Shown: one piece after another, positions 1 through 63,239 of the stretch
Numbering within the stretch: position 1 is the stretch's first letter
Layout of the letters: each line of letters opens with the position of its first letter
DNA from: Nanobdellota archaeon
Lineage (GTDB): Archaea > Nanobdellota > Nanobdellia > Pacearchaeales > GW2011-AR1
Length of the DNA: 64,000 bases
Reading direction: 5' to 3'
NCBI GenBank assembly: GCA_038045825.1
Contig: JBBSXJ010000001.1
Coordinates: forward strand, 6,281 to 70,280
The notes under the pieces: model-generated
What the model was told of the DNA's origin: nothing
What the model saw: only the letters and a program-made list of their open reading frames with translations
The model's database searches: none
Made by a program: the position numbers and the translations under genes

Positions 1-1
1 G

Positions 2-1399
2 ATAGCAAAAGATAAGAAGAATTATGGATCAAATATTGAAGGAAAAGGAAAGAAGTTCATGATGGAGTTTTCTCAGCCTAATACTCATAAGGCATTTCAT
101 GTCGGTCATATAAGGGGAACTAGTTTAGGAGAAAGTATTGCTAGAGTACGCGAATTTTCAGGATACAAAGTAATAAGGGCAAATTATTCTGGAGATACTG
201 GAATGCATATTGCAAAGTGGATATGGGCATATAATAAATTCCACAAAGGAGAGAAAATACAAAATAATGAGAGCTGGTTTGCTAAAATATATGTTGAGGC
301 TGTTAAGAATTTGGAAGGAAATGAGAAAGGTGAAGTAGAGGTTTTGGAAATAAATAAGAAACTTGATGAAAAAAGAGATTCTAAACTTTTGAAAATATGG
401 AAAGATACTAGAAGCAAATCAATATCTGCATGGAAACCAATTTATTCTGACTTGGATGTAAAATTTGATGAGCAGTATTTTGAATCTCAAGTTGAAGAAA
501 AAGGAAAGAGAATTGCTTTAGAGTTGGTTAAGAAAGGCCTGGCTGAAATATCTGATGGAGCCACTATAATGAATCTTAAGGATAGGAATCTTGGTGTCTG
601 GATTTTATTAAGAAGAGATGGTACTGTTCTTTATTCTGCTAAAGATATTGCGTTAGCAGAGGAAAAGTTTGCTAAATATTCAATGGATGAATCTCTTGTT
701 ATAACTAATATGGAACAAAATTTGCATTTTCAACAACTAAAAAAAACTTTAGAGCTCATGAAATTCAAGAACTGGGAAAAATATTATCATTTGGGATTTG
801 AATCTGTAAGACTACCTGAAGGAAAGATGTCTTCTAGAACTGGAAATAATATTCTCTATGCAGATTTCAGAAAAGAGCTTGTTTCTGCAGCTAAAGAAGA
901 AATACTGAAGAGAGATAAGATTAGTGATAAGGAATCTGAAGATAGAGCTTTTGCTATTGCAATATCTGCTATAAAATATTCTATGCTTAAACAAGATACA
1001 AATAAAGTAATAATATTCAACAAGGAAGAGGCTATTCGTTTTGAAGGAGATACTGGACCTTATTTACTTTACAGCTATGCTAGGGCTAACAGCATAATTT
1101 CTAAATCTAAACATTCAAAGAACTTTAAAATAGATAAAATAGAGAGTCATGAAAGAGTTTTGATAAATGAACTTGCTCGTTTTCCAGACTTAGTTCTTGA
1201 AAGCTCAAGAACATTTAATGTTAATAGCGTAGCACATTATGCTTATAATTTATCTCAGAAATTCAATGAGTTTTATCATTCTTGTCAAGTTATTGGAAGC
1301 AAGGAAGAAAAATTTAGAGTTGCAATTGTAAATTCTTTTGCTATTGTCTTAGAAAATTCTTTGAAATTACTTGGGATACCTGTTTTAAAACAGATGTAA
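2..1399 (+). CDS. argS: arginyl-tRNA synthetase, 5' end truncated by window edge
   Basis: The frame is open from base 2 ('IAKDKKNYGSNIEGKGKKFMMEFSQPN'). It has the class I aaRS HIGH motif 'HVGHIRG', a KMSKS-like 'MSSRTG', and a C-terminal anticodon-binding region ending in M. Confidence 0.9.
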   Translation: MAKDKKNYGSNIEGKGKKFMMEFSQPNTHKAFHVGHIRGTSLGESIARVREFSGYKVIRANYSGDTGMHIAKWIWAYNKFHKGEKIQNNESWFAKIYVEAVKNLEGNEKGEVEVLEINKKLDEKRDSKLLKIWKDTRSKSISAWKPIYSDLDVKFDEQYFESQVEEKGKRIALELVKKGLAEISDGATIMNLKDRNLGVWILLRRDGTVLYSAKDIALAEEKFAKYSMDESLVITNMEQNLHFQQLKKTLELMKFKNWEKYYHLGFESVRLPEGKMSSRTGNNILYADFRKELVSAAKEEILKRDKISDKESEDRAFAIAISAIKYSMLKQDTNKVIIFNKEEAIRFEGDTGPYLLYSYARANSIISKSKHSKNFKIDKIESHERVLINELARFPDLVLESSRTFNVNSVAHYAYNLSQKFNEFYHSCQVIGSKEEKFRVAIVNSFAIVLENSLKLLGIPVLKQM

Positions 1400-2951: not shown

Positions 2952-2995
2952 TAAAAAAAGTCAACATATAAAAACAGATATAATCTTTTCTTTAT

Positions 2996-3487: not shown

Positions 3488-3533
3488 TTTAATTAATTGA
3501 AAAGGTATATAAAAAGAGGTTCTGATAAATATC

Positions 3534-12298: not shown

Positions 12299-13018
12299 TT
12301 GATGTATAAAAAAGGATTGAGCCACATAGAATTTGTGGTTTCATTTACAATATTCATAGGGTTTCTTGTATTTGCTTTTGTATTCTTTAATCCGTTGCAG
12401 AGTCAAAGAACATTGAAGTCTACAATGGATTATGCTTGGATTGAGGTATCTCGTGAGGGAAGAGAAAATATTGAAAGTTACTCTGTGTCTATAGATACGG
12501 GATATGCTTCGGCCGTAAATTTTGAGATAGCTGGAATACCTTTAGATTATAATGCTACTGCAGAAGATGAAAATGGTAATCCAATAGATGTACATAGAGA
12601 TTCTAACGGGATAGTTTATCTTGATAGAGGAACTAGCAATTTTATTAAGATATTATACTCTCCTGCTTTAGAGAATAGTCCTTTTGTAAGTCTTGGAGCT
12701 TCACTTGGAACAATAACTCCTACCACAACTACAGGTAATTTTTATATTTCTTCTTCTGAGATAAAAGACATCTATTTTGAGAGATTATTTTTAGAATTAA
12801 ATCAAAGTTATTACTCTGATTATGCTGCACTTAAAGAAGACTTGAACTTGCCAAACAGAATAGATTTTGGATTCATAATTACTTTTGATAATCATCAAAT
12901 AAGAGCAATGAATGATGTACCTGAGGGTATTGAAGTATTGTCAAAGAATGATAGAGTCGAGATAATTAAACAGAATGGAGATCATGGATTTGCCGAGGTA
13001 ACTGTTTTGGTATGGTAA
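12299..13018 (+). CDS. pilin-like protein (class III signal peptide)
   Basis: 'MMYKKGLS|HIEFVVSFTIFIGFLVFAFVFF'. Confidence 0.55.
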   Translation: MMYKKGLSHIEFVVSFTIFIGFLVFAFVFFNPLQSQRTLKSTMDYAWIEVSREGRENIESYSVSIDTGYASAVNFEIAGIPLDYNATAEDENGNPIDVHRDSNGIVYLDRGTSNFIKILYSPALENSPFVSLGASLGTITPTTTTGNFYISSSEIKDIYFERLFLELNQSYYSDYAALKEDLNLPNRIDFGFIITFDNHQIRAMNDVPEGIEVLSKNDRVEIIKQNGDHGFAEVTVLVW

Positions 13019-13488
13019 ATCAAAAAATCGATGTTGATACTCGATTTTTGGATGATCGAAGTGTCGACTTAAGGAGACACTTGCGACATAAAAAAGGAAT
13101 TGCTAGGATAATTGAACTTCTTATAGCTATAACAATTATTTCAATAATATTACTTGTTACATACAGACAAAGCTTACCTTCACAAGAAACTCAGGATTTA
13201 TCTGAAAATGCAAGAGACATATTATCTGAAATAAGCACTATTGATAACTTAAGAGATGAAGTTGTAGCTAATCAAGTTAATGTTGTTGCAATGACTAACA
13301 CTCTTGCGTTTATTAACTCGAGTTTACCTGATTATATTAAATTTGAATTACGTGCGTGCATAATAACAAGTTCATGTGGTCAATCTAATTATGTTGGAGA
13401 TGTCTACTCTGCCGAGAGAATAATAAGCGCCAGTAGAGATGAGTTTGGTCCTGTTAAACTAAGATTATTCTTGTGGGTAGAAGAATGA
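13012..13488 (+). CDS. pilin-like protein with repeat-element insertion in its leader
   Basis: 'MVN[QKIDVDTRFLDDRSVDLRRHLRH]KKGIARIIELLIAITIISIILLV'. The bracketed 23 codons are repeat-element copy A. Without them the N-terminus is a canonical 'MVNKKG|IA...' prepilin. Confidence 0.55.
   Translation: MVNQKIDVDTRFLDDRSVDLRRHLRHKKGIARIIELLIAITIISIILLVTYRQSLPSQETQDLSENARDILSEISTIDNLRDEVVANQVNVVAMTNTLAFINSSLPDYIKFELRACIITSSCGQSNYVGDVYSAERIISASRDEFGPVKLRLFLWVEE
13021..13089 (+). mobile_element. miniature hairpin repeat element, copy A (69 bp)
   Basis: It shares 'atcaaaaaatcgatg...ctcgatttttggatga' and '...gatcgaagt...cgacat' with the copies at 48740-48817 and 29427-29599 (rc). A hairpin pairs aaaaatcga with tcgattttt. 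Confidence 0.65.
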
Positions 13489-13895
13489 TGAAGAAATTTG
13501 AATTTTTAGAGCATACTGGAGACTTGAAGTTTAGAGCATATGGTAATAGCTTGAATGAGATGTTTGAGAATTGTGCTTTGGCTGTTTCATCCGTATTTTC
13601 AAGAGGCAAGAAGATTAAGGCATTGAGTAAAAAAGAGATTTCTGTATCTGGAAAGGATAAGGAATCTATTCTTTACAAATTTATTGAAGAAATAATATAC
13701 TTATTTGATGCTGAAGGGTTTGTTATCTCTCGTGCAGATGTTGAACTTAGTGATGGGAAATTGAATGCAACTGCTTACGGGGATGATTCTTCTAATTACA
13801 AAGATTTAGACGCAATAAAGTCACCAACATATGCTGAGATGTATGTAAAAGAGAAAAATGGAAGTTGGGTTTGTCAAGTTGTTGTAGATGTTTAG
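13485..13895 (+). CDS. archease (RtcB activator)
   Basis: 'MMKKFEFLEHTGDLKFRAYG' is the archease N-terminus. It lies directly upstream of rtcB. The ATG at 13485 overlaps the upstream stop (ATGA); the track ORF starts at a GTG at 13473. Confidence 0.85.
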   Translation: MMKKFEFLEHTGDLKFRAYGNSLNEMFENCALAVSSVFSRGKKIKALSKKEISVSGKDKESILYKFIEEIIYLFDAEGFVISRADVELSDGKLNATAYGDDSSNYKDLDAIKSPTYAEMYVKEKNGSWVCQVVVDV

Positions 13896-13925: not shown

Positions 13926-16760
13926 ATGGTAAATATTAAAAAAATAAATGAATACACTTGGGAAATTCCGAAAGAAAATGGCATGAAAGTACCAGGCAGA
14001 ATTTTTGCCTCTGAAAAATTATTTGAAAAAATAAAGAATGACTTAACTTTTGAACAAATAAAAAATGTAGCTAAACTTCCAGGAATAATTGGATACTCTC
14101 TTGCCATGAGTGATGCCCATCAGGCCTATGGGATGTGTGTCGGAGGGGTAGCTGCTTTTGATTCTAAGAAAGGAATTATAAGTCCCGGAGCTGTTGGTTT
14201 TGATATTAATTGCTTAACTGGAAATAGTTCAATAGTTACTGAATTTGGAGGATCTATGAAAATTGAAAACTTTGAAAAATTACAATCTGAACTAGAGATA
14301 GATGATAATGGAAGAAAAATAAAAAAGATTGTTTTCTCAAGCCAGCTATCTACTCTCAACAATCAAAATAAATCTATGGAGGGAAAACCAGTTAACCTTA
14401 TTATGTCAAGAAATGCTGAAAAAGTCTCCGAGATAACTCTTGAATCTGGATTAAAAATAAAGACGACTGAAGAACACCCGTTTTTGACTAAAGAAGGTAT
14501 GCAAAAAATTTCTGAAATTAGTCTAGGGAAACTTGTAGGCGTGGACTTATTTGAAGGAATTGAATTAAACGAAGAAATAGATGAAAAAGAAGCCATTATT
14601 GCAAAGATAATGGGTTACTTGTTTGGAGATGGGAATTTCTCCAGATTAAAGACAGGACTAAGAGCCTCTGCTTATGGAAAAAAAGAAGATTTAGAGGAAA
14701 TTAAAAAAGATTTAGAGAGAATACGGGTTAAATCATATATTTATTCTAGAGAAAGAGACCACTCTATAAATACAAGATATGGAAATGTTAAGTTTAGAAA
14801 TATAGAATATTCATTACATATAAACTCTCAAGAATTCAATAGACTGCTAGAACAAAAAGGACTTATTTTAGGAAATAAAACAAGGCAAGAAGTAAGAATA
14901 CCTCAATGGATTAAAGAGTCTAAACCTATAATAAAAAGATTATTTTTAGCTGGATTTTTTGGAGCTGAAATGTCTACTCCTAAAACATTATCTAAAACTT
15001 GCTTTTTCTGCCCAACAATAGATCAAAATAAAATTGAATCTCTATCTCAAAATGCTCGCGACTTTTTGATAGATCTTTCTTTGCTTTTAGAAGAATTTGG
15101 AATAAATAATACTAAAATAAGCGAGATTGATGATTTCCATAATAAATATGGAGAAAAAACAAAGAGGTTTAGGTTATTTGTAAAGGGAGAAGAAGATATG
15201 CTCAAGCTATGGAGAAACATAGGTTTTGAATACAACCAAAAAAGAAAAAATATGGCTAATATAGCTTCACTTTACATCTTACTTAAAAAACAAGAAAACA
15301 ATAAAAGACTGTATTTGGCTCGAAAGATTAAAGAATATAAAAATAGAGGATTCAAACTGAAAGAAGTAAAAAAGATATTATTTAAAGAAATTAATGAAAG
15401 ATTCATTGAAAGACATTATTATGAAGATGCAGCTCAAAGAATTAAATTAGATTTTATTTCTTTTAAGGATTTTAAAAGGCTTAAACTGGAAGAATTAAAT
15501 AATTATGGAACAATATTTGATAAAATAGCAGAAAAAAAAGAAATAATTGGCAATCACAGAGTATATGATTTTAACGTTCAAGACAATCATAATTTCATAG
15601 CAAATGGGTTTGTTGTTTCGAATTGTGGCGTCCGATTATTAATATCTAATTTAGATAAAAAACAATTCTTGTCCAAAAGAAAAGATATTTTAAAAGAAAT
15701 TTATAATGCTGTCCCTTCTGGGGTTGGCAAAAAAAGTAAATTCAACCTCAACAATAAAGAAATTGATAACGTTTTAACTAATGGTGTTGGGTGGGCTATT
15801 GATAAAGGATATGGAGAGGCAGAAGATAAAGAATTATGCGAAGACAATGGTCAAATAATTGGAGCTGACTCAAAGAAAATATCTGCAAAAGCCCGTGGAC
15901 GAGGAATGAATCAACTTGGTACATTAGGAGCAGGAAACCATTTTCTAGAGATTGCAGAAGTTGAAAGCATTTATGATGAAAGAGTTGCTAAAATATTTGG
16001 CATTAAGAATGTTGGACAAATCACAGTCATGATTCATTCGGGCAGCAGAGGCGTTGGACACCAAGTTGCATCAGATTATATGAAAAAAATGGAAGAAGAA
16101 TATGGTTACAAACATTTACCTGATCGACAACTTGCTTATGCTAAGATAGACTCTGTATTAGGAAAAGACTATCTTGCTGCGATGGCAGGCGCTGCTAACT
16201 TTGGATTTACGAATAGACATTTAATTATGCATCAAGTCAGGGAGTCATTTGGAAAACACTTTCCTAAATCTGAATTAAACTTAGTTTATGACCTTGCACA
16301 CAACATTGCAAAATTTGAGGACCACACAGTTGATGGTAAAAAAATGAAATTATTAATTCATAGAAAAGGTGCAACACGTTCATTTGGTCCTGGAAGAAAA
16401 GAAATTCCCTTAAAATATCGCAAAGTCGGATGTCCTATATTTATTCCAGGGAGCATGGGGACATATTCTTACGTTTTAGTTGGAACAAAAAAAGCTGAAG
16501 AATTGACATTTGGCTCAACTGCGCACGGGGCTGGAAGAATATTATCTAGAAGCGAAGCTTCTCGAACTATCACTCCTCAAAATCTTGCTAAAGAGATGAA
16601 TGACAAAGACATTATCCTAGAATCTGCAAGTATGAAAGGTGCAGTGGACGAAGCACCCGCCGCATACAAAGATGTTAATGAAGTTGTTCGCGTAAGTGAT
16701 GAACTTGGTATAGGTAAGATGGTTGCTAGGCTTAAACCACTCGGGGTTGTTAAAGGATAA
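13926..16760 (+). CDS. rtcB: RNA-splicing ligase RtcB, interrupted by an intein
   Basis: Exteins: '...GAVGFDIN' + 'CGVRLL...'. RtcB motifs 'GAGNHFLE', 'HSGSRGVGH' and 'HGAGR' are present. Confidence 0.92.
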   Translation: MVNIKKINEYTWEIPKENGMKVPGRIFASEKLFEKIKNDLTFEQIKNVAKLPGIIGYSLAMSDAHQAYGMCVGGVAAFDSKKGIISPGAVGFDINCLTGNSSIVTEFGGSMKIENFEKLQSELEIDDNGRKIKKIVFSSQLSTLNNQNKSMEGKPVNLIMSRNAEKVSEITLESGLKIKTTEEHPFLTKEGMQKISEISLGKLVGVDLFEGIELNEEIDEKEAIIAKIMGYLFGDGNFSRLKTGLRASAYGKKEDLEEIKKDLERIRVKSYIYSRERDHSINTRYGNVKFRNIEYSLHINSQEFNRLLEQKGLILGNKTRQEVRIPQWIKESKPIIKRLFLAGFFGAEMSTPKTLSKTCFFCPTIDQNKIESLSQNARDFLIDLSLLLEEFGINNTKISEIDDFHNKYGEKTKRFRLFVKGEEDMLKLWRNIGFEYNQKRKNMANIASLYILLKKQENNKRLYLARKIKEYKNRGFKLKEVKKILFKEINERFIERHYYEDAAQRIKLDFISFKDFKRLKLEELNNYGTIFDKIAEKKEIIGNHRVYDFNVQDNHNFIANGFVVSNCGVRLLISNLDKKQFLSKRKDILKEIYNAVPSGVGKKSKFNLNNKEIDNVLTNGVGWAIDKGYGEAEDKELCEDNGQIIGADSKKISAKARGRGMNQLGTLGAGNHFLEIAEVESIYDERVAKIFGIKNVGQITVMIHSGSRGVGHQVASDYMKKMEEEYGYKHLPDRQLAYAKIDSVLGKDYLAAMAGAANFGFTNRHLIMHQVRESFGKHFPKSELNLVYDLAHNIAKFEDHTVDGKKMKLLIHRKGATRSFGPGRKEIPLKYRKVGCPIFIPGSMGTYSYVLVGTKKAEELTFGSTAHGAGRILSRSEASRTITPQNLAKEMNDKDIILESASMKGAVDEAPAAYKDVNEVVRVSDELGIGKMVARLKPLGVVKG
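14211..15623 (+). mobile_element. RtcB intein with LAGLIDADG homing-endonuclease domain (471 aa)
   Basis: It starts at Cys ('CLTGNSS'), has block B 'TTEEHPF', LAGLIDADG motifs 'IMGYLFGDGNF' and 'LFLAGFFGAEMS', and ends 'NGFVVSN' followed by the +1 Cys of 'CGVRLL'. Confidence 0.9.
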
Positions 16761-28739: not shown

Positions 28740-28952
28740 ATGGAAACAAATAAGTCTGACATGGAAACTGTGCCTACGAAGTTAACTAAAAGAATTATCA
28801 CTGAAATGGAAGAAATAATTAAACAGGGATGGTATGCTAATAGATCTGAATTAATTAGGGATGCTGTGCGCGACTTAGTTAAAAAACAAAAAATAACCTT
28901 ATTGGAGTCTGCTATAAAAGAGGATATTCAATGGGGATTGTATGGAAAGTAA
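28740..28952 (+). CDS. CopG/RHH-family antitoxin
   Basis: 'GWYANRSELIRDAVRDLV' is an RHH signature. It overlaps the PIN gene. Confidence 0.75.
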   Translation: METNKSDMETVPTKLTKRIITEMEEIIKQGWYANRSELIRDAVRDLVKKQKITLLESAIKEDIQWGLYGK

Positions 28953-29427
28953 GGCTATCTCTGATACTGGTCCTGTAATTCATTTAAATGAAATTAATTT
29001 AACTTCTGCTTTGGATGTTTTTTCATCAATATTCATACCATTAGAAGTTTCTCATGAATTGCAAAAATATAAAATAAATCTTCCAAAAAAAATAAAGGTT
29101 AGAGAATTAGAGGGACTGTCTAAAGATATAGTTAAGATTTTAACTAATGAGTATGACTTGGATATTGGAGAATCTTGTGCTATTTCATTGGCATTGCAAG
29201 AGAAAGCGGATTACTTTCTTACAGATGATTTAGAGGCTCGCGAAACAGCAAAAAAATACAAATTGGAAGTTCATGGGACTGTAGGAATTATTCTAAGAGC
29301 ATTTAAGGAAAAAATAATTGATAGAAAGACAGCTATAACAAGAATAAACGATTTACATGAGAAATCTACTTTATTTATCACAAAAGATCTTATTAAAAAT
29401 ATAATAGAAGCAATTGAGTCATTTTGA
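28942..29427 (+). CDS. PIN-domain nuclease toxin
   Basis: It has an N-terminal 'ISDTGPVIHL', then acidic residues 'GESCAISLA' and 'FLTDDLEAR', and pairs with the upstream RHH gene. Confidence 0.75.
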   Translation: MESKAISDTGPVIHLNEINLTSALDVFSSIFIPLEVSHELQKYKINLPKKIKVRELEGLSKDIVKILTNEYDLDIGESCAISLALQEKADYFLTDDLEARETAKKYKLEVHGTVGIILRAFKEKIIDRKTAITRINDLHEKSTLFITKDLIKNIIEAIESF

Positions 29428-29599
29428 TGTCGATAGTCTCTCACATAAACCACACCTTTTAGGAGGTGTTCAAGACTTCGATCACTGCAACAGTATCGTC
29501 TGTTGCAGGTACTACAACTTCTTTGAAGTTGAAGTCATCCAAAAATCGAGCACCAATCAAACCACACACTTTAGTATATGGCAGTGCATCGATTTTTTG
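29427..29599 (-). mobile_element. miniature hairpin repeat element, copy C (173 bp, longest)
   Basis: The reverse complement begins 'caaaaaatcgatgcac' and ends 'gagagactatcgacat'. Internal perfect hairpins are ctgcaacag/ctgttgcag, caacttc/gaagttg and acacct/aggtgt. A long-range stem pairs caaaaaatcgatgcac with gtgctcgatttttgg. Confidence 0.65.
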
Positions 29600-29625
29600 A
29601 TATGAATAATTTGCAAGTATGTTTA

Positions 29626-32600
29626 CTACTTCAATCTAATTGTTTCCAAATTTCTAGGAACTATTGTTTCTATACCATACTGGCGGTAAATACTTGATGC
29701 GAAATCCAAACAACGAGATTGTTCTCCGTGAGAAATTATTACTTTCTTAGGTTTAGGAGTCATTCTTCCTATAAACTGCATTAACTCTCCTCTTCCAGAG
29801 TGAGCTGAAAGACCAGACATTGTTTCAACTTGCATGTTTACATTTATTGTCTCTCCTCCAAAGTTTTCATCTATTCTTACAACTTTATTTCCTTCTGAGA
29901 CTTGTCTTCCTAAGGTATTAGGTCCTTGGTAACATCCGAAAATTATTAGGTTCTTTTCATTTTCAGCAAATTCTTTGAAATATTCAACTGAAGCTCCTCC
30001 AGCAAGCATTCCGTTTGTTGCAATAACTATGCATGGGCCTCCTTCAAAGACTTCTTTTCTTTCTGTAGGAGAACCTACTCTTTTGAATAATGAAGAAGTA
30101 AATGGATTTTCATCATTGAAGATTTTATTTCTTATATTACTTCCAAGAAATTCTGGGTAAGCTGTGTGAATTGCAGTTATATCCCATAACATACCATCAA
30201 GATAAACTGGAATTTGGGGAAGCTTCCCTGTGCGAATTGCATCTTCCACTCTTAGCAATGTTTCTTGAGCGTGACCTAAACCCAATTCAGGAAGAAGTAT
30301 CTTTCCCCCTCTCTTTATAGTATCATTAACTAGAATGCAGAATTTCTCATCAACTTCTGATAATGGGGGCTGAATCTGGTCTTTGCTTCCATAAGTTGAT
30401 TCTACCATTATTGATTCAACTCTCGGATAGAAGTTTACAGCGGGATCGAGAAGTCTTGTTTTTCTATAATTTGAGTCTCCAGTATAAACAAAATTATGTA
30501 ATCCATTTCCTATATTTACATGAGTTATAGCTGATCCAAGAACGTGTCCGGCATTATAAAATGTAATCCTAATATCTGGAGTTATATCAAAGACTTCTCC
30601 ATAATTAAGACATATTGAGTGTCTAACCATCTCTTTTACATCATCTGCTCTGTATATTGGAACTTCTGCTTTTTTGTAATGTACACTTACAAGATCAAGA
30701 GCAAGAAGAGCTGAGATATCTCTTGTTGGAGGAGTCATATATACAGGACCTTTGTACCCCATCTTGTATAGATAAGGAATTAATCCAGAATTGTGAACCA
30801 CTATATTTCCGGCTATAAAGTTGTGGCTTTCTACTTCTATATCTACTAAATAAGGATATGGATTTTCTTTTGAATCTATGGTTGTTATTTTTTCCCAGAT
30901 AACCTCTAATTTAAGAATATTTTCTAGAAGAGATATTTTATTATTAATGGCAGAAATTGTAGATGTCATCTTGTCTTTCATAAAAGATGAAAGGATGTGT
31001 GAAATCGAAGCCGCAAATTCTTTAGAAATTCTGTTTTCTTCTATTTGTTGTATTTGAGAAACTTTTAAACCAGTAGAAAGGCTTATTTCAGTTCTGGTAA
31101 GACTTAATAGCTGCCTAAGAACATACATATCATTTAGATCTATTCTTTTATTAATTTCAGTTATTCTATTCTTTAATACATATAGAAGTGTTTCTGCAGT
31201 CTTTCTTGTTGCATATCCTTCTTTTCTTCTAAATAAGTCTAAAAGACTCATAGGTAAAATATTACTTAAATTTGGACTATCATGTACTTTTCCCAACATG
31301 CCCGCTACTTTTAGTATTTCTCGCAAGTCATTTGAAGTTAAAGGCACTAAATCTTGTTTATTAAATTCATGATTATTAAACTTGGAAACTTCACTCATCA
31401 GATTGTCCATTTTATATTTTATTGAGAAGCCAACTTTTTCTTTGAACCTAGACAATCCGTAAATTGAAGATATACTTATGTCGTTGCCTGAAATATGTGA
31501 AGGGATATTGTTTAAAGAGAATAGATGCTGTAAATCTTTAATCATTTCTTTGCTGAATGAAGTTATTTTAATTCTGTTTGAAACTGTACCTTCTGCATCA
31601 GCAAAACCCCTTAAAAATGCTAGTTGTACTTCGTTTCCTGAATTAATTATCTTTTCAGGTATCCTAATATCTCTTGTTTTAGAGAAAAATTCTGGAAAGT
31701 TATTTTCCAAGAATCTAATTATTTTTATATTGTTTATTTCAAGAATATGTGCATTTTTTGTTTTATCTGAGTGATGCCTTATTATTGCCTCGGAATTAAA
31801 TAACTCTTTGATTATTTCTTTATGATATTCTAAAATTGGGATATGTGAATCTGTTAACCTTAAAGAATAAGGTGTTGATTTATGCCCATCACCCATATAA
31901 TAACCAATAAATTCTGCTAGATTTGGAGTCAGCTCATGAGGAAGATGTGTTTTGCCTTCCCCTTTTTTATTATATTGGACTTTAGTGATTAGTGGAATTA
32001 GCTCTCCTAATTTTTGATCTTTATGGAGTAAATTTGATGGCAAGAGCATATGTTCTGTTAATTCTTGGGCCTCAGTTTCTTTGATTTCTAGATTTTTAAC
32101 TGTAAAGAATCTATGGTTTGGAGAAGACTCTATTGTTGAATAAGGCGTTTTAATTGTTAGTACTCTTTTATGCCCATTAGTTTGAGTTTTTTCAGTTACT
32201 TTAGATGATATATATTTACCAGATTTCCAATCTAATGAAATTACGTTTTCCCCTACTTTAATATCATCTATTTTCTTGTAACCTTTTTCTGTTAGAACAG
32301 GATATTGTGGAGGCAGACAATGGTCTAAATGAGCGTGTGAAAGAACTATTGCATCAATACTTGAAATGTCTCCTATTTCAGAAACATCTAAGTAAGGGAA
32401 TCTTTCTGGACCAGATATAACTCCAACGTTTATTCCACAGTCAAAAACTATCTTTGACTTTGGAGTCTGCAATAAAAGACATGAACGGCCTACTTGTCTT
32501 CCAGACCCAAGATAAGTAAGTCTAACCCACATATCCATCTTTTCAGGATTCCAGTTCTCATAAATCTTCTTTCCAATTTCATTCAAGAATTTCTTTCTGT

Positions 32601-33051
32601 AAGAGTTATTTGCATAAAGGACATCTCTGATTTTTTCAGTTATTTTTGAGTGGATCGCAGGACTTCTTTGAGTTTGGATTGTCCACATCGTAGAATTCTT
32701 TATTTCTTTTAGAATTGAACCATTCTTTCCTATTACTATTCCAGGGCGCTTTGCCTCCACTATTGCAGTAGATCTAGGAACATCAAATATTATGGATTCT
32801 ATTTCTGCATCTGTTGGAACTAATTCACGAATGGTCTTCTCAGTCTCTTCTTGAGGGGCTAGCATTGAACTATCCGCCCTTAACTCTATTCTTTTTTTTA
32901 CCTTCTTTACTATATCTCTTATTTTATCATCTGAGTTTCTAAAGAATTCTTTGTCTGTTGTGTAAAGAACTATGTTTGCTCCTTCAAAGATTGCCTCGCT
33001 AACTACACCGTTAGGTAATTCGCTTTTTATTGCCTTTAATATTTCACTCAT
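29626..33051 (-). CDS. aCPSF1 (KH-domain beta-CASP metallo-beta-lactamase ribonuclease), interrupted by an intein
   Basis: It has N-terminal KH domains ('GIVIGKNGSILKEIK'). The MBL motif 'LSHAHLDH' resumes after the intein with 'SGLIPYLYKMGYKGPVYMTPP'. It also has a beta-CASP region and a C-terminal 'ISHGE'. Confidence 0.9.
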   Translation of the reverse strand: MSEILKAIKSELPNGVVSEAIFEGANIVLYTTDKEFFRNSDDKIRDIVKKVKKRIELRADSSMLAPQEETEKTIRELVPTDAEIESIIFDVPRSTAIVEAKRPGIVIGKNGSILKEIKNSTMWTIQTQRSPAIHSKITEKIRDVLYANNSYRKKFLNEIGKKIYENWNPEKMDMWVRLTYLGSGRQVGRSCLLLQTPKSKIVFDCGINVGVISGPERFPYLDVSEIGDISSIDAIVLSHAHLDHCLPPQYPVLTEKGYKKIDDIKVGENVISLDWKSGKYISSKVTEKTQTNGHKRVLTIKTPYSTIESSPNHRFFTVKNLEIKETEAQELTEHMLLPSNLLHKDQKLGELIPLITKVQYNKKGEGKTHLPHELTPNLAEFIGYYMGDGHKSTPYSLRLTDSHIPILEYHKEIIKELFNSEAIIRHHSDKTKNAHILEINNIKIIRFLENNFPEFFSKTRDIRIPEKIINSGNEVQLAFLRGFADAEGTVSNRIKITSFSKEMIKDLQHLFSLNNIPSHISGNDISISSIYGLSRFKEKVGFSIKYKMDNLMSEVSKFNNHEFNKQDLVPLTSNDLREILKVAGMLGKVHDSPNLSNILPMSLLDLFRRKEGYATRKTAETLLYVLKNRITEINKRIDLNDMYVLRQLLSLTRTEISLSTGLKVSQIQQIEENRISKEFAASISHILSSFMKDKMTSTISAINNKISLLENILKLEVIWEKITTIDSKENPYPYLVDIEVESHNFIAGNIVVHNSGLIPYLYKMGYKGPVYMTPPTRDISALLALDLVSVHYKKAEVPIYRADDVKEMVRHSICLNYGEVFDITPDIRITFYNAGHVLGSAITHVNIGNGLHNFVYTGDSNYRKTRLLDPAVNFYPRVESIMVESTYGSKDQIQPPLSEVDEKFCILVNDTIKRGGKILLPELGLGHAQETLLRVEDAIRTGKLPQIPVYLDGMLWDITAIHTAYPEFLGSNIRNKIFNDENPFTSSLFKRVGSPTERKEVFEGGPCIVIATNGMLAGGASVEYFKEFAENEKNLIIFGCYQGPNTLGRQVSEGNKVVRIDENFGGETINVNMQVETMSGLSAHSGRGELMQFIGRMTPKPKKVIISHGEQSRCLDFASSIYRQYGIETIVPRNLETIRLK
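30790..32319 (-). mobile_element. aCPSF1 intein with LAGLIDADG homing-endonuclease domain (510 aa)
   Basis: It starts at Cys245 ('CLPPQYPVL'), has block B 'SSPNHRF', LAGLIDADG motifs 'FIGYYMGDGH' and 'LRGFADAEGT', and ends 'GNIVVHN' followed by +1 Ser. I checked the codons on the sequence: tgt at rc 32319-32317, aat at rc 30792-30790. Confidence 0.88.
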
Positions 33052-45575: not shown

Positions 45576-46958
45576 TTAAATGCTGCATTTATAGACATTT
45601 AATGTATCTGATTCTTCTAATAATAAACAATCTTTCTTCATTGCTTCTAGCGGTGCTCTTTGATTAGGACCGAGCTTAGAATATCCGAAAAAGTCTTCTA
45701 GAAATATAAAGTTTTTAGTTTGATTATTCCAGACTTCTGCTCCTGTGTATATATCAGCTCCATTGTATAAAGCATATCCGCTTTCTAATCCATTTAATGA
45801 AAATGGTATAATGTAGTCTGGTTTCTTAAGATACCATTCTACACCTGGACTTGATAGGGTTACCAAAGTATTATTCATAATCAAAGTCTTAGTTGATTCA
45901 CTTAAAGACTTGTAATCTATTACTGGTTCTGTTGCTGAATAAGGGCTTATTACTTGGGGTTTAACTACAGTTAGATAATTAGAATCAAAAAATAAGTTGG
46001 AAGGATAGATTATTGCTAATGCAATGATAAGAACACCAATTACCTTATTGCTTTCATATAAATAAGATAATAATGAAGCTAGAAATATTATTACTGAAAG
46101 AATTACAAAATAAGCATAGCGTAAAGCAAATACTTTAACAAAAAATAAACCTGTAAGCAATATTACTGAAGGCAAAAGTAAAAGATAAAACATTCTTTTA
46201 TTCTTTTTATATGTAAATGGAATTCCAAGTAAAGAAATTATGAAGAAAGCTCTTAGACTCTTGAAAAGCTGGGAAGTGTATTCTTCAGCGTATTCGCTTC
46301 CTGTAGATATTGTTGCTCCAATTCCTAAGAAAGATAAACCAAAGTAAGCTCCCACTAAAATTGGAATAATGAAAAGTTTCCAATCTTTATGCTCTCGGAA
46401 AAACATAAATAAGAAGAAAGGAATCAGAACTAACCCTGCTATCTGCGTTTGAACTAAAACGATCAAAGAAATGGAAGCAAGCCAAGCATATTTCTTGCTT
46501 TTTTTGGATTTATACAATAAGTATAGTGTTAGGAAAAATAAAAACTGAAATGCTTGATAAAACCTGGCCTGGCGAGAATAAACTATCTCAAGAAATAGAA
46601 AACAGGTAAATAAAGCAGCAATAACTCCTGTGCTTTTATTGAACTCCTTTCCTATAAAGAAAGCTAGCAGGATAGTTGCAAGACCAAAGAGCACACTTAC
46701 AAATCTAACAGCAAAATCTGCAGAACCAAAAATTAAAATAAACAACCCTTGTAAATAATGAAAAACCAAAGCCCTGGAATAAAAAAGCCCTGAATCAAAG
46801 ATAGGGATTCCTTTAGTGGCAATGTTTTCGGCAGCTATGGAAGAAATTGTTTCATCAAACCATAATGGGCTCGAGCCTAAAGAATAAACTCTCAAAACTA
46901 AACCAAAGATGAGAATTAAAGCAAGTATACTAAATACTATCTTGTTATTTTTATCCAT
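45576..46958 (-). CDS. GT-C-type membrane glycosyltransferase (ArnT/PMT family 39-like)
   Basis: It has ~11 TM helices, the N-terminal loop 'LWFDETISS' (DE motif) and a C-terminal soluble domain. Confidence 0.65.
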   Translation of the reverse strand: MDKNNKIVFSILALILIFGLVLRVYSLGSSPLWFDETISSIAAENIATKGIPIFDSGLFYSRALVFHYLQGLFILIFGSADFAVRFVSVLFGLATILLAFFIGKEFNKSTGVIAALFTCFLFLEIVYSRQARFYQAFQFLFFLTLYLLYKSKKSKKYAWLASISLIVLVQTQIAGLVLIPFFLFMFFREHKDWKLFIIPILVGAYFGLSFLGIGATISTGSEYAEEYTSQLFKSLRAFFIISLLGIPFTYKKNKRMFYLLLLPSVILLTGLFFVKVFALRYAYFVILSVIIFLASLLSYLYESNKVIGVLIIALAIIYPSNLFFDSNYLTVVKPQVISPYSATEPVIDYKSLSESTKTLIMNNTLVTLSSPGVEWYLKKPDYIIPFSLNGLESGYALYNGADIYTGAEVWNNQTKNFIFLEDFFGYSKLGPNQRAPLEAMKKDCLLLEESDTLNVYKCSI

Positions 46959-47130
46959 ATTATTAGCAGAAACTTAGATTAGTTAAAACTTAGTTATGTC
47001 AAAGTGTTTGTTTAAAACAACATCCTTTAGGGTGTGAACACTTTCAGCATAAGAATTTTGTTAGCATCCAAAAAACTAAACAAACTCCACATTTAAGTGT
47101 GGGGTAAACTCAAAGTCTTTTTGATCTTAA

Positions 47131-48575: not shown

Positions 48576-48902
48576 TTATTTGTAAATTCTTCCTCTTTTA
48601 TCAAAGACCCTTACAAATAAAATCTTTCTTTTAAAATCTATATCTATTAACATCCTATAGTCTCCTATTCTTAATTTATAATCTTCACCTTCAAAATGTT
48701 CTAGAAACCTAAATGGATCCAAAACAATTTCATTAAATCAAAAAATCGATGCACTTTTGATTTGTGCTCGATTTTTGGATGATTGAAGTTTCGATTTTGT
48801 GAGAAACTATCAACATTTAGATTTAATTCTTTCTTGGATATCTTTAGGAAGATTTCTGAAAAATTTAGTAGCCTGGTTTGAGAATTTTACAGAGTAACTC
48901 AT
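48576..48902 (-). pseudogene. relE: RelE/ParE-family toxin gene disrupted by repeat-element copy B
   Basis: 5' part: 'MSYSVKFSNQATKFFRNLPKDIQERIKSK'. 3' part: 'FNEIVLDPFRFLEHFEGEDYKLRIGDYRMLIDIDFKRKILFVRVFDKRGRIYK*'. Deleting 48740-48817 joins them in frame. Confidence 0.75.
48740..48817 (+). mobile_element. miniature hairpin repeat element, copy B (78 bp)
   Basis: 'caaaaaatcgatgcac-ttttgattt-gtgctcgatttttggatgattgaagtttcgattttgtgagaaactatcaacat'. It lies inside the RelE ORF. Confidence 0.75.
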
Positions 48903-49072
48903 AAATTCTCTAAATCTGTGTAAGAGGATTCAGGGTCTTTTCGAGCTTTTGCTAATTCTTTTTTAGCCCATTCTGTAAGCTTTCCTTCAGACATTAGCAT
49001 ATATTTTATTAGAGCAATATCTCTCTTTAGGGATAAAATATCATCATGCAGATGTTTTGCATTAACTTCCAT
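48899..49072 (-). CDS. antitoxin of the RelE module (57 aa)
   Basis: My own reading gives 'MEVNAKHLHDDILSLKRDIALIKYMLMSEGKLTEWAKKELAKARKDPESSYTDLENL'. There is an ATGA overlap with the relE start. Confidence 0.55.
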   Translation of the reverse strand: MEVNAKHLHDDILSLKRDIALIKYMLMSEGKLTEWAKKELAKARKDPESSYTDLENL

Positions 49073-61649: not shown

Positions 61650-62350
61650 CATTCAAAAGACCTGACGGAAGGAAACTAGATGAAATGAGACCTATTGTGG
61701 CTAAAATAGGAATTGTTCCTAATGCTGATGGAAGTGCAATGTTTACATTTGGTAAAACTGTAGCAATTGCTGCAGTTTATGGACCTAGATTATTACACCC
61801 TCAACATATGCAAGATCCTAAGGCTGCTATATTAAGAGTTAATTATGATTTACTTTCATTCTCTGTTGCAGATAGAAAGAAGCCTGGACCTTCAAGAAGA
61901 TCACAGGAAATTTCTAAAGTTACTGAGTGGGCATTATCTCCTGCACTTGATTTGAAAGAATTTCCTAATACAGTTATTGATGTACAGATATACATATTAC
62001 AAGCTAATGCAAGTACAAGGGTGGCTGGAATAAACGCTGCTAGTATGGCTTTGGCTCAAGCTGGGATACCTATGAAAGATTTAGTTTGTGCTGTATCTGT
62101 AGGAAAGATGGATAAGGACCTTGTTTTAGATGTTAATGATGAAGAAGAACACTTTGAAGATGGAGAGGGCGCAACAGACATGGCTACTGCTAGATTAGCA
62201 AACTCTGACAAATGGACATTACTTCAATTAGATGGAAAGATACAACCTGATCTTTACCCTAAGGCATTAAGTATGGCAGACAAAGCATTTGCTAAGATTT
62301 ATGAAGTGCAGAAAAAAGCATTAAAGAGTGTCATGGAGGAAGAAAAATGA
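61646..62350 (+). CDS. rrp41: exosome complex exonuclease Rrp41 (RNase PH domain)
   Basis: 'RPDGRKLDEMRPI...ADGSAMFTFGKTVAIAAVYGPR'. Confidence 0.92.
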   Translation: MTFKRPDGRKLDEMRPIVAKIGIVPNADGSAMFTFGKTVAIAAVYGPRLLHPQHMQDPKAAILRVNYDLLSFSVADRKKPGPSRRSQEISKVTEWALSPALDLKEFPNTVIDVQIYILQANASTRVAGINAASMALAQAGIPMKDLVCAVSVGKMDKDLVLDVNDEEEHFEDGEGATDMATARLANSDKWTLLQLDGKIQPDLYPKALSMADKAFAKIYEVQKKALKSVMEEEK

Positions 62351-62385
62351 AAAAATTTTTGTTAACAAGTAAAACTTTTGCCTGT

Positions 62386-62416
62386 TCAATATTCCCAAGT
62401 AGGGGAGGAATATTGA
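62386..62416 (+). promoter_or_regulatory. perfect 10-bp hairpin overlapping the rrp42 Shine-Dalgarno region
   Basis: tcaatattcc (62386-62395) pairs with ggaatattga (62407-62416) across an 11-nt loop. GGAGG (62404-62408) is partly in the 3' arm. The ATG is at 62418. Confidence 0.4.
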
Positions 62417-62417
62417 C

Positions 62418-63239
62418 ATGAGCGCAATGAATTTATCTAATTTGACTTATAATACTTTAAGCAAGATGTTTGTTGCTGGAAAGAGATTTGATGGTCGTAA
62501 ACTTTTAGAGCAGAGAGATTTCACAGTGGAATATGATGTTTCTTACAAAGCTGAGGGAAGCGCTAGAGTTAAACTAGGAAAAACAGAAGTTGTTGTAGGA
62601 GTTAAAATGGAAGTTGGGACTCCTTACCCTGATTCTATGGACAAAGGAAACTTGATGGTTTCTGGAGATTTATTGCCTCTAGCATCACCTAGATTTGAAT
62701 CTGGACCTCCTAAGTTCAATGCTATTGAATTACCAAGATTAATTGATAGAATGGTAAGAGAATCTCATATGATTGATTTAAGCAAATTGGTAATAACTGA
62801 AGGAGAGAAAGTTTGGGTAGTGATTATTGATATTTATCCTATAAATGATGATGGAGCATTGATTGATGCCGCAAGTATTGCTACAATAGCTGCTTTACAG
62901 CAGGTACGTATCCCTGAATTGAATAAAGATTTAAAGATAGATCATGATAAAAAAGGAACAAAGAAATTGCCTTTGGTTGATTCAATATTGCCTTTGTCAT
63001 TTACATTCTACAAGCTTGCAGATTCATTATTCATTGATCCAACAAGAGAAGAAGAAGAAGCAGCTGATGGAAAGATTGTGTTGGGCATATCACATTACAA
63101 AGGAAAAGAACATATGATACACTCTGCTCAAAAAGGAATGGAAGCTCATTTATCAACTGAAGATATAACTGAAATGATGAAAACTCTTCCAAAACTGTAT
63201 GACGATACACTTAAAAAGCTTAAAAAGTTTCTGAAGTAA
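62418..63239 (+). CDS. rrp42: exosome complex subunit Rrp42 (RNase PH-like)
   Basis: 'GKRFDGRKLLEQRDFTVEYDVSYKAEGSARVKLGKTEVVVGVK'. Confidence 0.9.
   Translation: MSAMNLSNLTYNTLSKMFVAGKRFDGRKLLEQRDFTVEYDVSYKAEGSARVKLGKTEVVVGVKMEVGTPYPDSMDKGNLMVSGDLLPLASPRFESGPPKFNAIELPRLIDRMVRESHMIDLSKLVITEGEKVWVVIIDIYPINDDGALIDAASIATIAALQQVRIPELNKDLKIDHDKKGTKKLPLVDSILPLSFTFYKLADSLFIDPTREEEEAADGKIVLGISHYKGKEHMIHSAQKGMEAHLSTEDITEMMKTLPKLYDDTLKKLKKFLK

What the first reader, a model, noticed from the sequence alone, without database searches (positions are those of the whole stretch)
29427..29599. Hairpin-rich miniature repeat element family (3 copies: 173, 78 and 69 bp); this is the longest copy
**Shared termini.** Three loci share the same ends.
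- One end is '(a)tcaaaaaatcgatg(cac)...(gtg)ctcgatttttggatga'.
- The other end is '...gaga(g/a)actatc(g/a)acat', or '...agacacttgcgacat' in copy A.
- The loci are 29427-29599 (reverse orientation), 48740-48817 and 13021-13089.

**Structure.**
- All copies keep a hairpin in which caaaaaatcga(t)gcac pairs with gtgctcgatttttgg.
- The 173-bp copy adds three further near-perfect hairpins: ctgcaacag-n6-ctgttgcag, caacttc-ttt-gaagttg and acacct-n6-aggtgt.
- The shorter copies look like internal-deletion derivatives.

**Insertion behaviour.**
- There is no obvious terminal inverted repeat.
- At most an 'AT' is duplicated at the junctions.
- All three left flanks end in (A/T)AT.
- This resembles hairpin-dependent, TSD-less elements mobilised in trans by IS200/IS605-type (Y1 TnpA) transposases more than classical TIR MITEs.
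- No autonomous partner is in the window.

**Position.** This copy starts on the last base of the PIN toxin stop codon and fills the gap to the convergent aCPSF1 gene. It could also act as a bidirectional terminator or give rise to a small RNA.
Basis: seen in the sequence. Interest (0 to 1): 0.75.

Follow-up and report, generated by a model that had tools for sequence, protein, structure and literature searches.

The report
Palindromic mobile repeat that inserts in-frame
This is a small hairpin-forming mobile DNA repeat, common in DPANN (Nanoarchaeota-type) archaea, that lands between genes and also inside protein-coding genes without breaking the reading frame, as the palindromic elements of Rickettsia do.

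Summary
Three copies share exact ends, at 29427-29600 (-), 48738-48816 (+) and 13020-13089 (+). A covariance model finds a fourth, decayed copy at 46996-47125 (-).

About 60 further copies occur in Woese-/Pace-/Nanoarchaeota MAGs and groundwater metagenomes. The standard form is 115-121 nt with four helices. These are supported by compensatory changes: 22 of 44 pairs changed on both sides, and 0 of 500 shuffles reached this.

The element is mobile.
- Syntenic relatives lack copy C by exactly 69 nt.
- Removing 78 nt of copy B restores an intact 82-aa RelE/ParE toxin.

Complementarity is Watson-Crick only, and orientation relative to neighbouring genes is random. This points to a DNA-level palindrome, not an RNA.

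One sense frame (QKIDAPPHLKRCGLIGARFLDD...) is open in 36 of 55 copies. Net length is a multiple of three in 33 of 55. In 17 of 58 loci the element lies in frame in or at the ends of long ORFs:
- an E2 acyltransferase linker;
- an LMW phosphatase with two copies;
- the pilin-like gene in this window.

This is the behaviour of Rickettsia RPE and M. jannaschii MJRE elements, so I call it a new member of a known kind. No transposase was found, and the IS200/IS605 link is untested.

The parts
29427..29600 (-). Copy A, the finding itself. It is the full two-arm element plus an extra 53-nt two-hairpin module. It is intergenic, lying between the aCPSF1 stop (29626) and the stop of the PIN-like gene (29427).
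   Evidence: 71.5 + 28.3 bits in two pieces
29539..29600 (-). Copy A, arm P1. The lower stem is CAAAAAATCGAtGCAC/GTGCTCGATTTTTGG. The upper hairpin is CCATATAC-TAAA-GTGTGTGG, with a 3' bulge TTGATT.
29482..29534 (-). Copy A, extra module of two hairpins (CTTCAACTTC..GAAGTTGtAG and CTGCAACAG..CTGTTGCAG). It sits in the GGATGA linker and is absent from the standard 121-nt form.
29427..29481 (-). Copy A, arm P2. The lower stem is TCGAAGTCT/AGACTATCGA, closed by ATG/CAT. The upper hairpin is ACACCTCC-TAAAA-GGTGTGGT.
48738..48816 (+). Copy B, a short form lacking both upper hairpins. It is inserted antisense into a RelE/ParE toxin gene and breaks it. Net insertion is 78 nt.
48810..48902 (-). N-terminal fragment of the interrupted RelE/ParE gene (MSYSVKFSNQATKFFRNLPKDIQERIKSK, then reads into the element and stops).
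48576..48737 (-). C-terminal fragment of the interrupted RelE/ParE gene (FNEIVLDPFRFLEHFEGEDYKLRIGDYR...RGRIYK).
48899..49072 (-). 57-aa partner gene upstream of the broken toxin. The same 57-aa + 82-aa pair is intact in L153.
13020..13089 (+). Copy C, a short form. It is a 69-nt in-frame insertion after codon 3 of a type-IV-pilin-like gene (MVN|QKIDVDTRFLDDRSVDLRRHLRH|KKGIARIIELL...).
13012..13488 (+). Host gene of copy C. It is 158 aa with the insert. The closest relatives are 134-135 aa without it.
46996..47125 (-). Copy D, a decayed full-length copy. P1 is degraded with about 11 extra nt, and P2 is well kept. It lies between divergent genes 45576-46958 (-) and 47131-47787 (+).
   Evidence: (37 bits, E 3.7e-07). 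The same copy is present in L149.
62348..62419 (+). Possible remnant. A P2-like hairpin TTCAATATTCC..GGAATATTGACAT ends in GACAT. Low confidence.
   Evidence: (21.8 bits, E 0.002)

Best explanation
**What it is.** It is a non-autonomous, palindromic miniature mobile DNA element of DPANN archaea.

**Anatomy.**
- The standard unit is 115-121 nt.
- It is built from two similar arms in direct orientation, joined by GGATG.
- Each arm is a long hairpin: lower stem, upper stem CCACAC..GTGTGG, then a 3' bulge starting TTT.
- Both ends of the element sit at the base of the two arms. When the strand folds, the flanking DNA is brought together.

**Insertion behaviour.**
- It inserts at A|T sites whose right side is A-rich (AT|NAaAA), which resembles its own left end (AT|CAAAAAA).
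- It has no terminal inverted repeats, and at most AT is shared at the two junctions.
- Copies shrink by loss of the upper hairpins (window copies B and C).
- Copies grow by nested two-hairpin modules (window copy A).

**Survival in a gene-dense genome.**
- One sense frame is free of stop codons.
- The net length is usually a multiple of three.
- An insertion after an NAT codon therefore only adds about 22-62 hydrophilic residues to the host protein.
- Other insertions survive only between genes or in dispensable genes.

**Shown versus inferred.**
- Shown: repetition, structure, insertion polymorphism, precise gene interruption, in-frame residence.
- Inferred: that the hairpins act in single-stranded DNA during mobilisation, and that a trans-acting enzyme moves it. 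I could not identify that enzyme.
For: **Family and structure.**
- Exact shared ends in the window.
- About 60 copies in unrelated contexts in DPANN MAGs and metagenomes, and more with the covariance model.
- Four helices: 96.3% of cells paired, 22 of 44 pairs changed on both sides, 0 of 500 shuffles reached this, and slid controls paired 34-44%.

**DNA rather than RNA.**
- In variable pairs there are 902 Watson-Crick cells, 7 G:T, 18 A:C and 24 other mismatches.
- The upstream gene is on the same strand in 26 cases and the opposite strand in 21. The downstream gene is 23 versus 22.

**Mobility.**
- Syntenic contigs L155 and L157 lack copy C by exactly 69 nt.
- The closest homologues of the host protein (77-90% identity) are 134-135 aa against 158 aa in the window.
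- Removing 78 nt of copy B gives an 82-aa protein that matches ParE_toxin in one stretch. It aligns without a gap to 82-aa homologues at up to 84% identity.

**In-frame behaviour.**
- Frame S1 is open in 36 of 55 unique copies, against 1-14 for the other frames. Net length is 3n in 33 of 55.
- Stops in S1 are depleted against pair-preserving shuffles: 5 versus 10.0, P = 0.0005. S0 and S2 show no depletion.
- 17 of 58 loci have S1 continuous with long ORFs. Six have at least 40 codons on both sides; no other frame does.
- Removing two element peptides from an LMW phosphatase restores a full LMWPc match: profile 1-143/144, 31.1 to 40.2 bits.
- In an E2 acyltransferase the peptide lies in the linker between the lipoyl and E3-binding domains.
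- 27 clusters in the representative library carry the peptide.

**Junctions.**
- Position -1 is A in 59 of 61 copies, and +2 is A in 52 of 57.
- The tandem dimer in L053 shares one T, reading GACA-T-CAAAAAA.
Against: - No transposase or any other recurrent gene was found next to copies, so mobilisation in trans is inferred, not shown.
- The collection scans required exact P1 sequence. The apparent invariance of P1 is therefore partly an artefact of how copies were found, and decayed copies such as D are undersampled.
- Copies are related by descent. The shuffle tests therefore overstate significance.
- One orthologous gene pair (L048 and L136, about 60% protein identity) carries a long and a short copy at about the same site. 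This suggests long residence or a hot spot rather than recent movement.
- There are no expression or proteomic data, so translation of the inserted segment is inferred from intact downstream ORFs.
Confidence: 0.8

Rival explanations
1. It is specifically an IS200/IS605-type derivative (a PATE, a palindrome-associated transposable element). On this reading a Y1 HUH transposase (TnpA) binds the two subterminal hairpins on one strand. It cuts 3' of ..AT at the left flank and 3' of GACAT at the right end.
For: - No TIR, at most a 2-nt shared junction, and two similar subterminal hairpins in direct orientation.
- The left flank and the right end both finish in AT.
- Removing CAAAAAA...ACAT restores relE exactly.
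- Tandem copies are joined as GACAT|CAAAAAA.
Against: - A motif scan of 815 kb of fetched DNA found no Y1 transposase motif.
- No transposase was found in the window ORFs checked or recurrently near copies.
- Only 2 nt of the left flank are conserved, whereas this family uses a 4-5-nt target.
- The conserved A at +2 and the A-rich right flank are not expected for a target read only on its 5' side.
- There is no strand asymmetry in the mismatches.
Confidence: 0.2
2. It moves as a small circle through a site-specific recombinase, such as an IS607-like serine recombinase or another integrase. The recombinase would use the AT core and weak similarity between the circle junction (GACAT|CAAAAAA) and A-rich pseudo-sites (AT|NAAAAA).
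For: - AT is present at both junctions.
- The right flank resembles the element's own left end: +2 is A in 52 of 57, and +4 to +6 are mostly A.
- The empty site of copy C reads AAATCAAAAAGG, almost the same as the element's left end.
- There is a head-to-tail dimer in L053 against a single copy at the same locus in L127.
Against: - No recombinase gene was found near copies.
- The A-rich flank could simply reflect the base composition of these 32% G+C genomes.
- Hairpin covariation is not needed for a recombinase that reads double-stranded DNA.
Confidence: 0.15
3. It is a structured non-coding RNA or a transcription or RNA-processing signal, for example a bidirectional terminator, a stabiliser or an L7Ae-binding K-turn RNA. 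On this reading it is repeated because it is useful.
For: - All copies fold strongly.
- Covariation supports the structure.
- Many copies lie within 45 nt of a stop codon.
- Both strands carry a T5-T6 tract, the archaeal termination signal (from the sequence).
- Some P2 arms have GA..GA motifs like a K-turn.
Against: - Rfam gives no match.
- Orientation relative to genes is random.
- G:U pairs are rarer than A:C mismatches, which is unlike known RNAs.
- There is no conserved promoter upstream.
- The GA..GA motif is absent from many copies.
- Copies sit inside coding frames.
Confidence: 0.08
4. The similarity reflects a conserved protein-coding motif or domain shared by several genes, not an inserted element.
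For: - One frame is open.
- The peptide QKIDAPP..GARFLD recurs in predicted proteins.
Against: - Most copies are intergenic and occur in either orientation.
- The peptide varies exactly where the stems covary, while the nucleotides stay complementary.
- There is no Pfam match.
- Host proteins regain full domain matches or standard length when it is removed.
- An empty site exists at the DNA level.
Confidence: 0.02

Closest known systems
Rickettsia palindromic elements (RPE; Ogata et al. 2000, as described in PMC10969869), and the related protein-coding palindromic repeats of Wolbachia (cited in PMC2996958)
   Same: - About 100-150 bp hairpin-forming dispersed repeats with no known transposase.
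- Found between genes and, in frame, inside unrelated housekeeping genes.
- They add a few tens of residues, typically in unstructured segments.
- The hosts have small, reduced genomes.
   Different: - The host here is archaeal (DPANN), not a bacterium.
- No sequence relation was shown.
- This family has two similar arms in direct orientation, sharp A|T junctions, a very strongly kept first arm, and nested add-on hairpin modules.
MJRE palindromic repeats of Methanocaldococcus jannaschii (Suyama, Lathe and Bork 2005; cited in PMC2996958; details partly from my own memory)
   Same: An archaeal palindromic repeat family, mostly extragenic, with a few copies inside coding regions that keep the reading frame.
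   Different: - Different lineage (Euryarchaeota) and sequence.
- As I recall, only three in-frame cases were reported there.
- Here about 30% of sampled loci are in frame with long ORFs, and the family spans several DPANN lineages.
IS200/IS605 derivatives (PATEs) and REP/REPIN-RAYT systems
   Same: - No TIR and no real target duplication.
- Subterminal or complete hairpins maintained by compensatory change.
- Non-autonomous, with many copies.
   Different: - No Y1 transposase or RAYT was found.
- There is no GTAG/CGTC head as in REPs.
- The conserved target is only AT.
- In-frame residence in genes is not a feature of REPs.
Classical prokaryotic MITEs (for example Correia, ERIC, Sulfolobus SM elements)
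   Same: Short, non-autonomous, structured, and occasionally intragenic with in-frame fusions (PMC10969869).
   Different: Classical MITEs are defined by terminal inverted repeats and a target-site duplication derived from a DDE transposon. Neither is present here.

Membership tests
Palindromic coding repeats (RPE / MJRE type; a class defined by behaviour) | Short (about 70-200 bp) dispersed repeat with strong dyad symmetry | tested here: met
   (96.3% paired; 22 pairs with changes on both sides)
Palindromic coding repeats (RPE / MJRE type; a class defined by behaviour) | Copies inside unrelated protein-coding genes that keep the reading frame open | tested here: met
   (LMWPc restored on removal; E2 linker), plus (pilin-like gene in the window, with an empty site in relatives)
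Palindromic coding repeats (RPE / MJRE type; a class defined by behaviour) | No transposase encoded and no autonomous partner known | tested here: met
   The elements are too short to encode one. No recurrent neighbouring gene was found. Nothing was found in the window ORFs scanned. Whole genomes were not scanned.
Palindromic coding repeats (RPE / MJRE type; a class defined by behaviour) | Sequence homology to RPE-1..10 or MJRE1-3 | not tested
Rfam had no match.
IS200/IS605 family (non-autonomous derivative) | Mobilised by a Y1 HUH transposase (TnpA) present in the genome | tested here: inconclusive
   A motif scan of the window and all fetched loci (815 kb) gave 0 hits. Pfam on 10 window ORFs gave none. 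The rest of the genome could not be searched.
IS200/IS605 family (non-autonomous derivative) | No TIR, with similar subterminal hairpins at both ends in direct orientation | tested here: met
   P1b and P2b both read CCACAC..GTGTGG followed by TTT on the same strand.
IS200/IS605 family (non-autonomous derivative) | Insertion 3' of a specific 4-5-nt target, with no duplication | tested here: inconclusive
   Only A (59 of 61) and T are fixed on the left. An unexpected A is fixed at +2 on the right.
Classical MITE | Terminal inverted repeats | tested here: not met
   The left end ATCAAAAAATCGATG and the reverse complement of the right end, ATGTCGAAGTG, show no inverted repeat beyond AT.
Classical MITE | Target-site duplication of fixed length | tested here: inconclusive
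   At most AT (2 nt) is shared. This is equally explained by insertion after AT of an element that ends in AT.
REP / REPIN-RAYT | 20-40-bp palindrome with a GTAG or CGTC head, and a RAYT gene flanked by REPs | tested here: not met
   No such head is in the consensus. No Y1 motif was found near copies.
Known RNA families (Rfam 15) | Match at the gathering score | tested here: not met
   0 matches in the window and no tRNA-like gene

The most novel reading that the evidence does not exclude
The family may be actively mobilised across several DPANN lineages by a mechanism that needs neither terminal inverted repeats nor an element-encoded enzyme. Candidates are a host or distant HUH enzyme, or a recombinase acting on the folded two-arm structure at an AT core. 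On this reading, its stop-free frame and 3n length are an evolved adaptation for living inside the genes of very gene-dense, reduced genomes. That would give a tractable system for the long-open question of how RPE-type elements move. It would also be a recurrent source of new peptide segments in DPANN proteins.
Probability: 0.3. Interest if true: 0.75.

Novelty: new member of a known kind. Interest (0 to 1): 0.55.

Why it matters
**Annotation.** Predicted DPANN proteins in public databases already contain this 22-62-residue segment. It splits domain matches and inflates apparent novelty. Masking the element would clean up such annotations and alignments.

**Biology.** In-frame palindromic elements have been described for Rickettsia, Wolbachia and one methanogen. 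How they move has never been worked out. This family offers several handles on that question:
- sharp junctions;
- filled and empty orthologous sites from one aquifer;
- a head-to-tail dimer;
- modular variants.

**Genome evolution.** It shows that very small, gene-dense archaeal genomes can still carry a prolific selfish repeat, here four copies in 64 kb. One copy inactivated a toxin gene. Another extended a pilin leader.

Tried and rejected
- **Known RNA.** Rfam at gathering thresholds and ARAGORN gave nothing.
- **H/ACA, C/D-box or K-turn RNA.** I considered this because of the 3' ACA and the GA..GA motifs. I rejected it because there is no pseudouridylation pocket, there are no C/D boxes, the GA..GA motif is missing in many copies, and there is no excess of G:U pairs.
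- **Archaeal bulge-helix-bulge intron.** I rejected this on inspection. The two ends do not pair with each other or with the flanks, and the flanks differ between copies. The 3n length and open frame would also be unnecessary if the element were spliced out.
- **Autonomous partner.**
  - L079 looked like an element with a large insert, but it is a decayed copy.
  - The genes between the three copies of L019 are Rad50, Mre11, a methyltransferase and RNase J.
  - All-against-all BLAST of 210 neighbouring ORFs found no recurrent family.
  - A regex scan for the Y1 motif found nothing.
- **Viral contigs.** One unrelated hit.
- **Element peptide against the word-indexed protein database.** Only 5 short ORFs were returned. 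The full HMMER scan of representatives gave 27 clusters.
- **Unrelated metagenome hits.** About half of the hits belong to an unrelated repeat (ATTCGATAATCGAAAAAAAATCGATTTTTTCAAAACGATAATCGATTTTTGG...) and were set aside.

Full report
**1. The observation**

The three loci are real. TCAAAAAATCGATG and CTCGATTTTTGGATGA each occur without mismatch exactly three times in the window, and the other matches are at chance level.

The exact limits are:
- A = 29427-29600 on the minus strand (174 nt);
- B = 48738-48816 (79 nt);
- C = 13020-13089 (70 nt).

All three share a first hairpin (AAAAAATCGA/TCGATTTTT), a GGATGA linker and a second hairpin that ends in (G/A)ACAT.
- Between the three copies, the second hairpin already shows compensatory changes: AGTGTC/GACACT, AGTTTC/GAAACT, AGTCT/AGACT.
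- Each copy folds far better than shuffled sequence.
- Rfam and ARAGORN find nothing.

**2. The family outside the window**

A pattern scan of one genome per species found the element only in DPANN archaea. The records are labelled Woesearchaeota, Pacearchaeota and Nanoarchaeota. The bacterial hits are chance matches without the second hairpin.

- About 60 of the copies retrieved by the two scans together are real. Most come from the Hainich aquifer; the rest are in JGI metagenome records.
- The remaining hits belong to an unrelated repeat.

The common form is 115-121 nt.
- Each of the two arms has a lower stem, an upper stem (CCACAC..GTGTGG) and a 3' bulge that begins TTT.
- The two arms resemble each other and lie in the same orientation.
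- Window copies B and C are forms that have lost both upper hairpins.
- Window copy A is the full form plus a 53-nt two-hairpin module in the linker.
- Other copies carry a 66-nt two-hairpin module at the same place, or a roughly 47-nt two-hairpin module nested in the loop of the second arm. The nested module occurs in either orientation and is also found on its own.

A covariance model built from 35 standard copies finds a fourth, decayed copy in the window at 46996-47125 (-). It also finds a weak possible remnant at 62348-62419, and further copies in the fetched loci.

**3. Structure, and which molecule it belongs to**

On the 35-sequence alignment, the four-helix structure has strong support:
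- 96.3% of cells are paired.
- 22 of 44 pairs changed on both sides (140 cells).
- None of 500 shuffles reached this.
- Slid controls paired only 34-44%.

The changes go almost entirely from one Watson-Crick pair to another. Among variable pairs there are 902 Watson-Crick cells, 7 G:T, 18 A:C and 24 other mismatches.
- Structured RNAs normally tolerate G:U far better than A:C (established knowledge).
- Here neither strand is favoured.

The element's orientation relative to its neighbours is random:
- upstream gene on the same strand 26, opposite strand 21;
- downstream gene 23 versus 22.

Complementarity is kept while the sequence changes. This argues against a dimeric protein site on double-stranded DNA.

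Taken together, the hairpins are most simply a property of single-stranded DNA of either strand, not of an RNA. This is an inference.

**4. It is an insertion**

*Copy B* lies inside a RelE/ParE toxin gene on the opposite strand.
- The two gene fragments are at 48810-48902 and 48576-48737.
- Taking out 78 nt gives an 82-aa protein that matches ParE_toxin in a single stretch, above Pfam's cut-off.
- That protein aligns without a gap at the junction (K29|F30, both conserved) to many 82-aa toxins of Nanoarchaeota, at up to 84% identity.
- An intact 57-aa + 82-aa gene pair is seen in L153.

*Copy C* lies after codon 3 of a type-IV-pilin-like gene.
- The window protein is 158 aa and is in NCBI as a Nanoarchaeota MAG protein.
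- Its closest homologues (77-90% identity) are 134-135 aa and lack exactly the 23 inserted residues.
- Syntenic contigs from another Hainich well read ...GGTATGGTAAATC|AAAAAGGAATT..., which is 69 nt shorter.

*Copies A and B* are present in all near-identical strains I could fetch.

**5. Junctions**

Across unique flanks:
- the base before the element is A in 59 of 61;
- the element starts TCA and ends GACAT;
- the second base after it is A in 52 of 57, and the next few are mostly A.

The frame restoration in relE and the empty site of copy C both show that one T (or AT) is shared between the flank and the element. The net insertion is therefore the element length minus one.

A head-to-tail dimer in L053 is joined as GACA-T-CAAAAAA. 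The same locus in L127 has one copy.

There is no terminal inverted repeat. The target thus looks like AT|NAaAA, which resembles the element's own left end.

**6. In-frame residence in genes**

Orthologous genes in L048 and L136 read straight through the element. This prompted a frame analysis.

*The frame starting at the C of TCAAAA (S1).*
- It is open in 36 of 55 unique copies, against 1-14 for the other five frames.
- It translates to QKIDAPPHLKRCGLIGARFLDDRSADHILKDVVLGRHCRH.
- Net length is a multiple of three in 33 of 55. The 66-nt module adds exactly 22 open codons.
- Within length classes, stops in S1 are half as frequent as in pair-preserving shuffles (5 versus 10.0, P = 0.0005). The other sense frames show no depletion. 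Relatedness of copies weakens this test.

*Continuity with host ORFs.* In 17 of 58 loci, S1 is continuous with a long ORF. Six have at least 40 codons on both sides, and no other frame shows that.

*Host genes are ordinary genes.*
- In an E2 acyltransferase, the 38 residues lie between the lipoyl and E3-binding domains.
- An LMW phosphatase carries two copies. It matches the LMWPc profile over positions 1-143 of 144 only after both segments are removed (31.1 to 40.2 bits).
- A metallophosphoesterase also carries a copy.

*The peptide itself.*
- It has no Pfam family.
- It varies exactly where the stems covary.
- A full scan of protein-cluster representatives finds it in 27 clusters.

*In the window.* Copy C is such an in-frame insertion. 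It lies in the leader that a prepilin peptidase would cut off after KKG. That would make it harmless, which is an inference.

**7. Mechanism**

The results show a non-autonomous insertion element with these properties:
- its hairpins are maintained;
- it lands at AT;
- it is filtered by selection, so that it persists between genes, in dispensable genes (the relE toxin), or in frame at NAT codon boundaries.

What moves it is unknown.
- No protein family recurs among 210 ORFs within 3 kb of copies.
- A Y1 transposase motif is absent from 815 kb of fetched DNA.
- The genes around three copies in L019 are housekeeping genes.
- The window ORFs I scanned include no transposase.

It lacks the enzyme and a 4-5-nt target, and it does not explain the conserved right flank.

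A recombinase acting on a small circle at an AT core fits the right-flank similarity and the dimer. It does not explain the hairpin covariation.

I give these about 0.2 and 0.15. A host-enzyme mechanism remains open.

**8. Comparison with what is known**

In-frame palindromic repeats are known from Rickettsia (RPE), Wolbachia and the archaeon Methanocaldococcus jannaschii (PMC10969869, PMC2996958). The MJRE details are partly from my memory of Suyama, Lathe and Bork 2005.

The present family behaves the same way and is therefore a new member of that kind.

I found no report of it in DPANN archaea in the searchable literature. That library is incomplete.

The family differs from the known examples in its two-arm direct-repeat architecture, its sharp A|T junctions, its nested modules, and the high share of in-frame copies.

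**9. Caveats**

- The collection scans required exact first-arm sequence. Conservation of that arm is therefore overstated, and decayed copies are undersampled.
- Gene calls in the fetched loci are simple ORF calls.
- No transcript or protein data were available.
- Whole genomes could not be scanned for enzymes.

Noticed in passing
L019:723-890 (-), L137:1012-1241 (-), L109:13830-13993 (+); also alone at L079:3370-3391, L121:4988-5009, L030:4334-4354: This is a second mini-element of about 47 nt with two hairpins (CTTCAAnTTG..CAAnTTGAAG and TTAGAAAA..TTTTCTAA). It is nested in the loop of the second arm of some copies, in either orientation. Parts of it also occur outside the main element. The first extra hairpin of window copy A (29510-29534) resembles its first hairpin.
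   Followed up: partly
L040:1382-1568 and 13339-13525, L055, L059, L088, L099, L121, L137: A 66-nt two-hairpin module (CAAG..CTGCACAG..CTTGTG) sits in the GGATG linker of about ten copies. It covaries, adds exactly 22 codons and keeps frame S1 open.
   Followed up: partly
L053:1-253 versus L127:1108-1234: The same locus carries a head-to-tail dimer of the element in one assembly and a single copy in another. The dimer shares one T at the joint. This could be a real copy-number polymorphism or an assembly effect.
   Followed up: no
L048:813-933 and L136:2528-2594: Orthologous genes (flanking proteins about 60% identical) carry a 121-nt and a 67-nt copy at about the same place near the C-terminus, both in frame. 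This suggests either an old insertion that later lost its upper hairpins, or a hot spot.
   Followed up: partly
window 29626-33051 (-) and 13926-16760 (+): aCPSF1 (1141 aa) carries an intein with a LAGLIDADG domain (precomputed Pfam hits). The RtcB-like gene (944 aa) also looks interrupted by an intein-sized insert. The RtcB case was not tested.
   Followed up: no
window 1943-4594 and 12299-13488: Several adjacent genes have type-IV-pilin-like N-termini (KKGVSPVVATVLL.., KKGIARIIELL..). They lie next to a T2SS-F-like gene at 6357-7667.
   Followed up: no
window 13060-13089: The 3' part of copy C reads AAGGAG-ACAC-TTG, a Shine-Dalgarno-like motif plus a TTG codon in frame with the pilin-like gene. 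Many standard copies carry AGGGAGG at the same place. Elements upstream of genes might therefore supply translation signals.
   Followed up: no
L026-L029, L032, L034-L039 and many others (JGI Ga0056123, Ga0209781, Ga0209364 ...): An unrelated abundant repeat (ATTCGATAATCGAAAAAAAATCGATTTTTTCAAAACGATAATCGATTTTTGGAAAAAAACGAAATTAACATCCCTA) lies at or near contig ends in other metagenomes. It was picked up only because it shares the AAAAAATCGAT..TCGATTTTTGG words.
   Followed up: no
window 28740-29427, 10821-11437, 47131-48307, 48576-49072: The window is rich in toxin-antitoxin-like pairs: RHH + PIN-like, nucleotidyltransferase + HEPN-like (judged from the sequences only), and the broken RelE pair. 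Two of the four element copies touch such pairs.
   Followed up: no
P0220: A 371-aa protein made of tandem repeats (QGQPHLSRCGL...) matched the element peptide weakly in seven stretches. It is probably an unrelated repeat protein.
   Followed up: no
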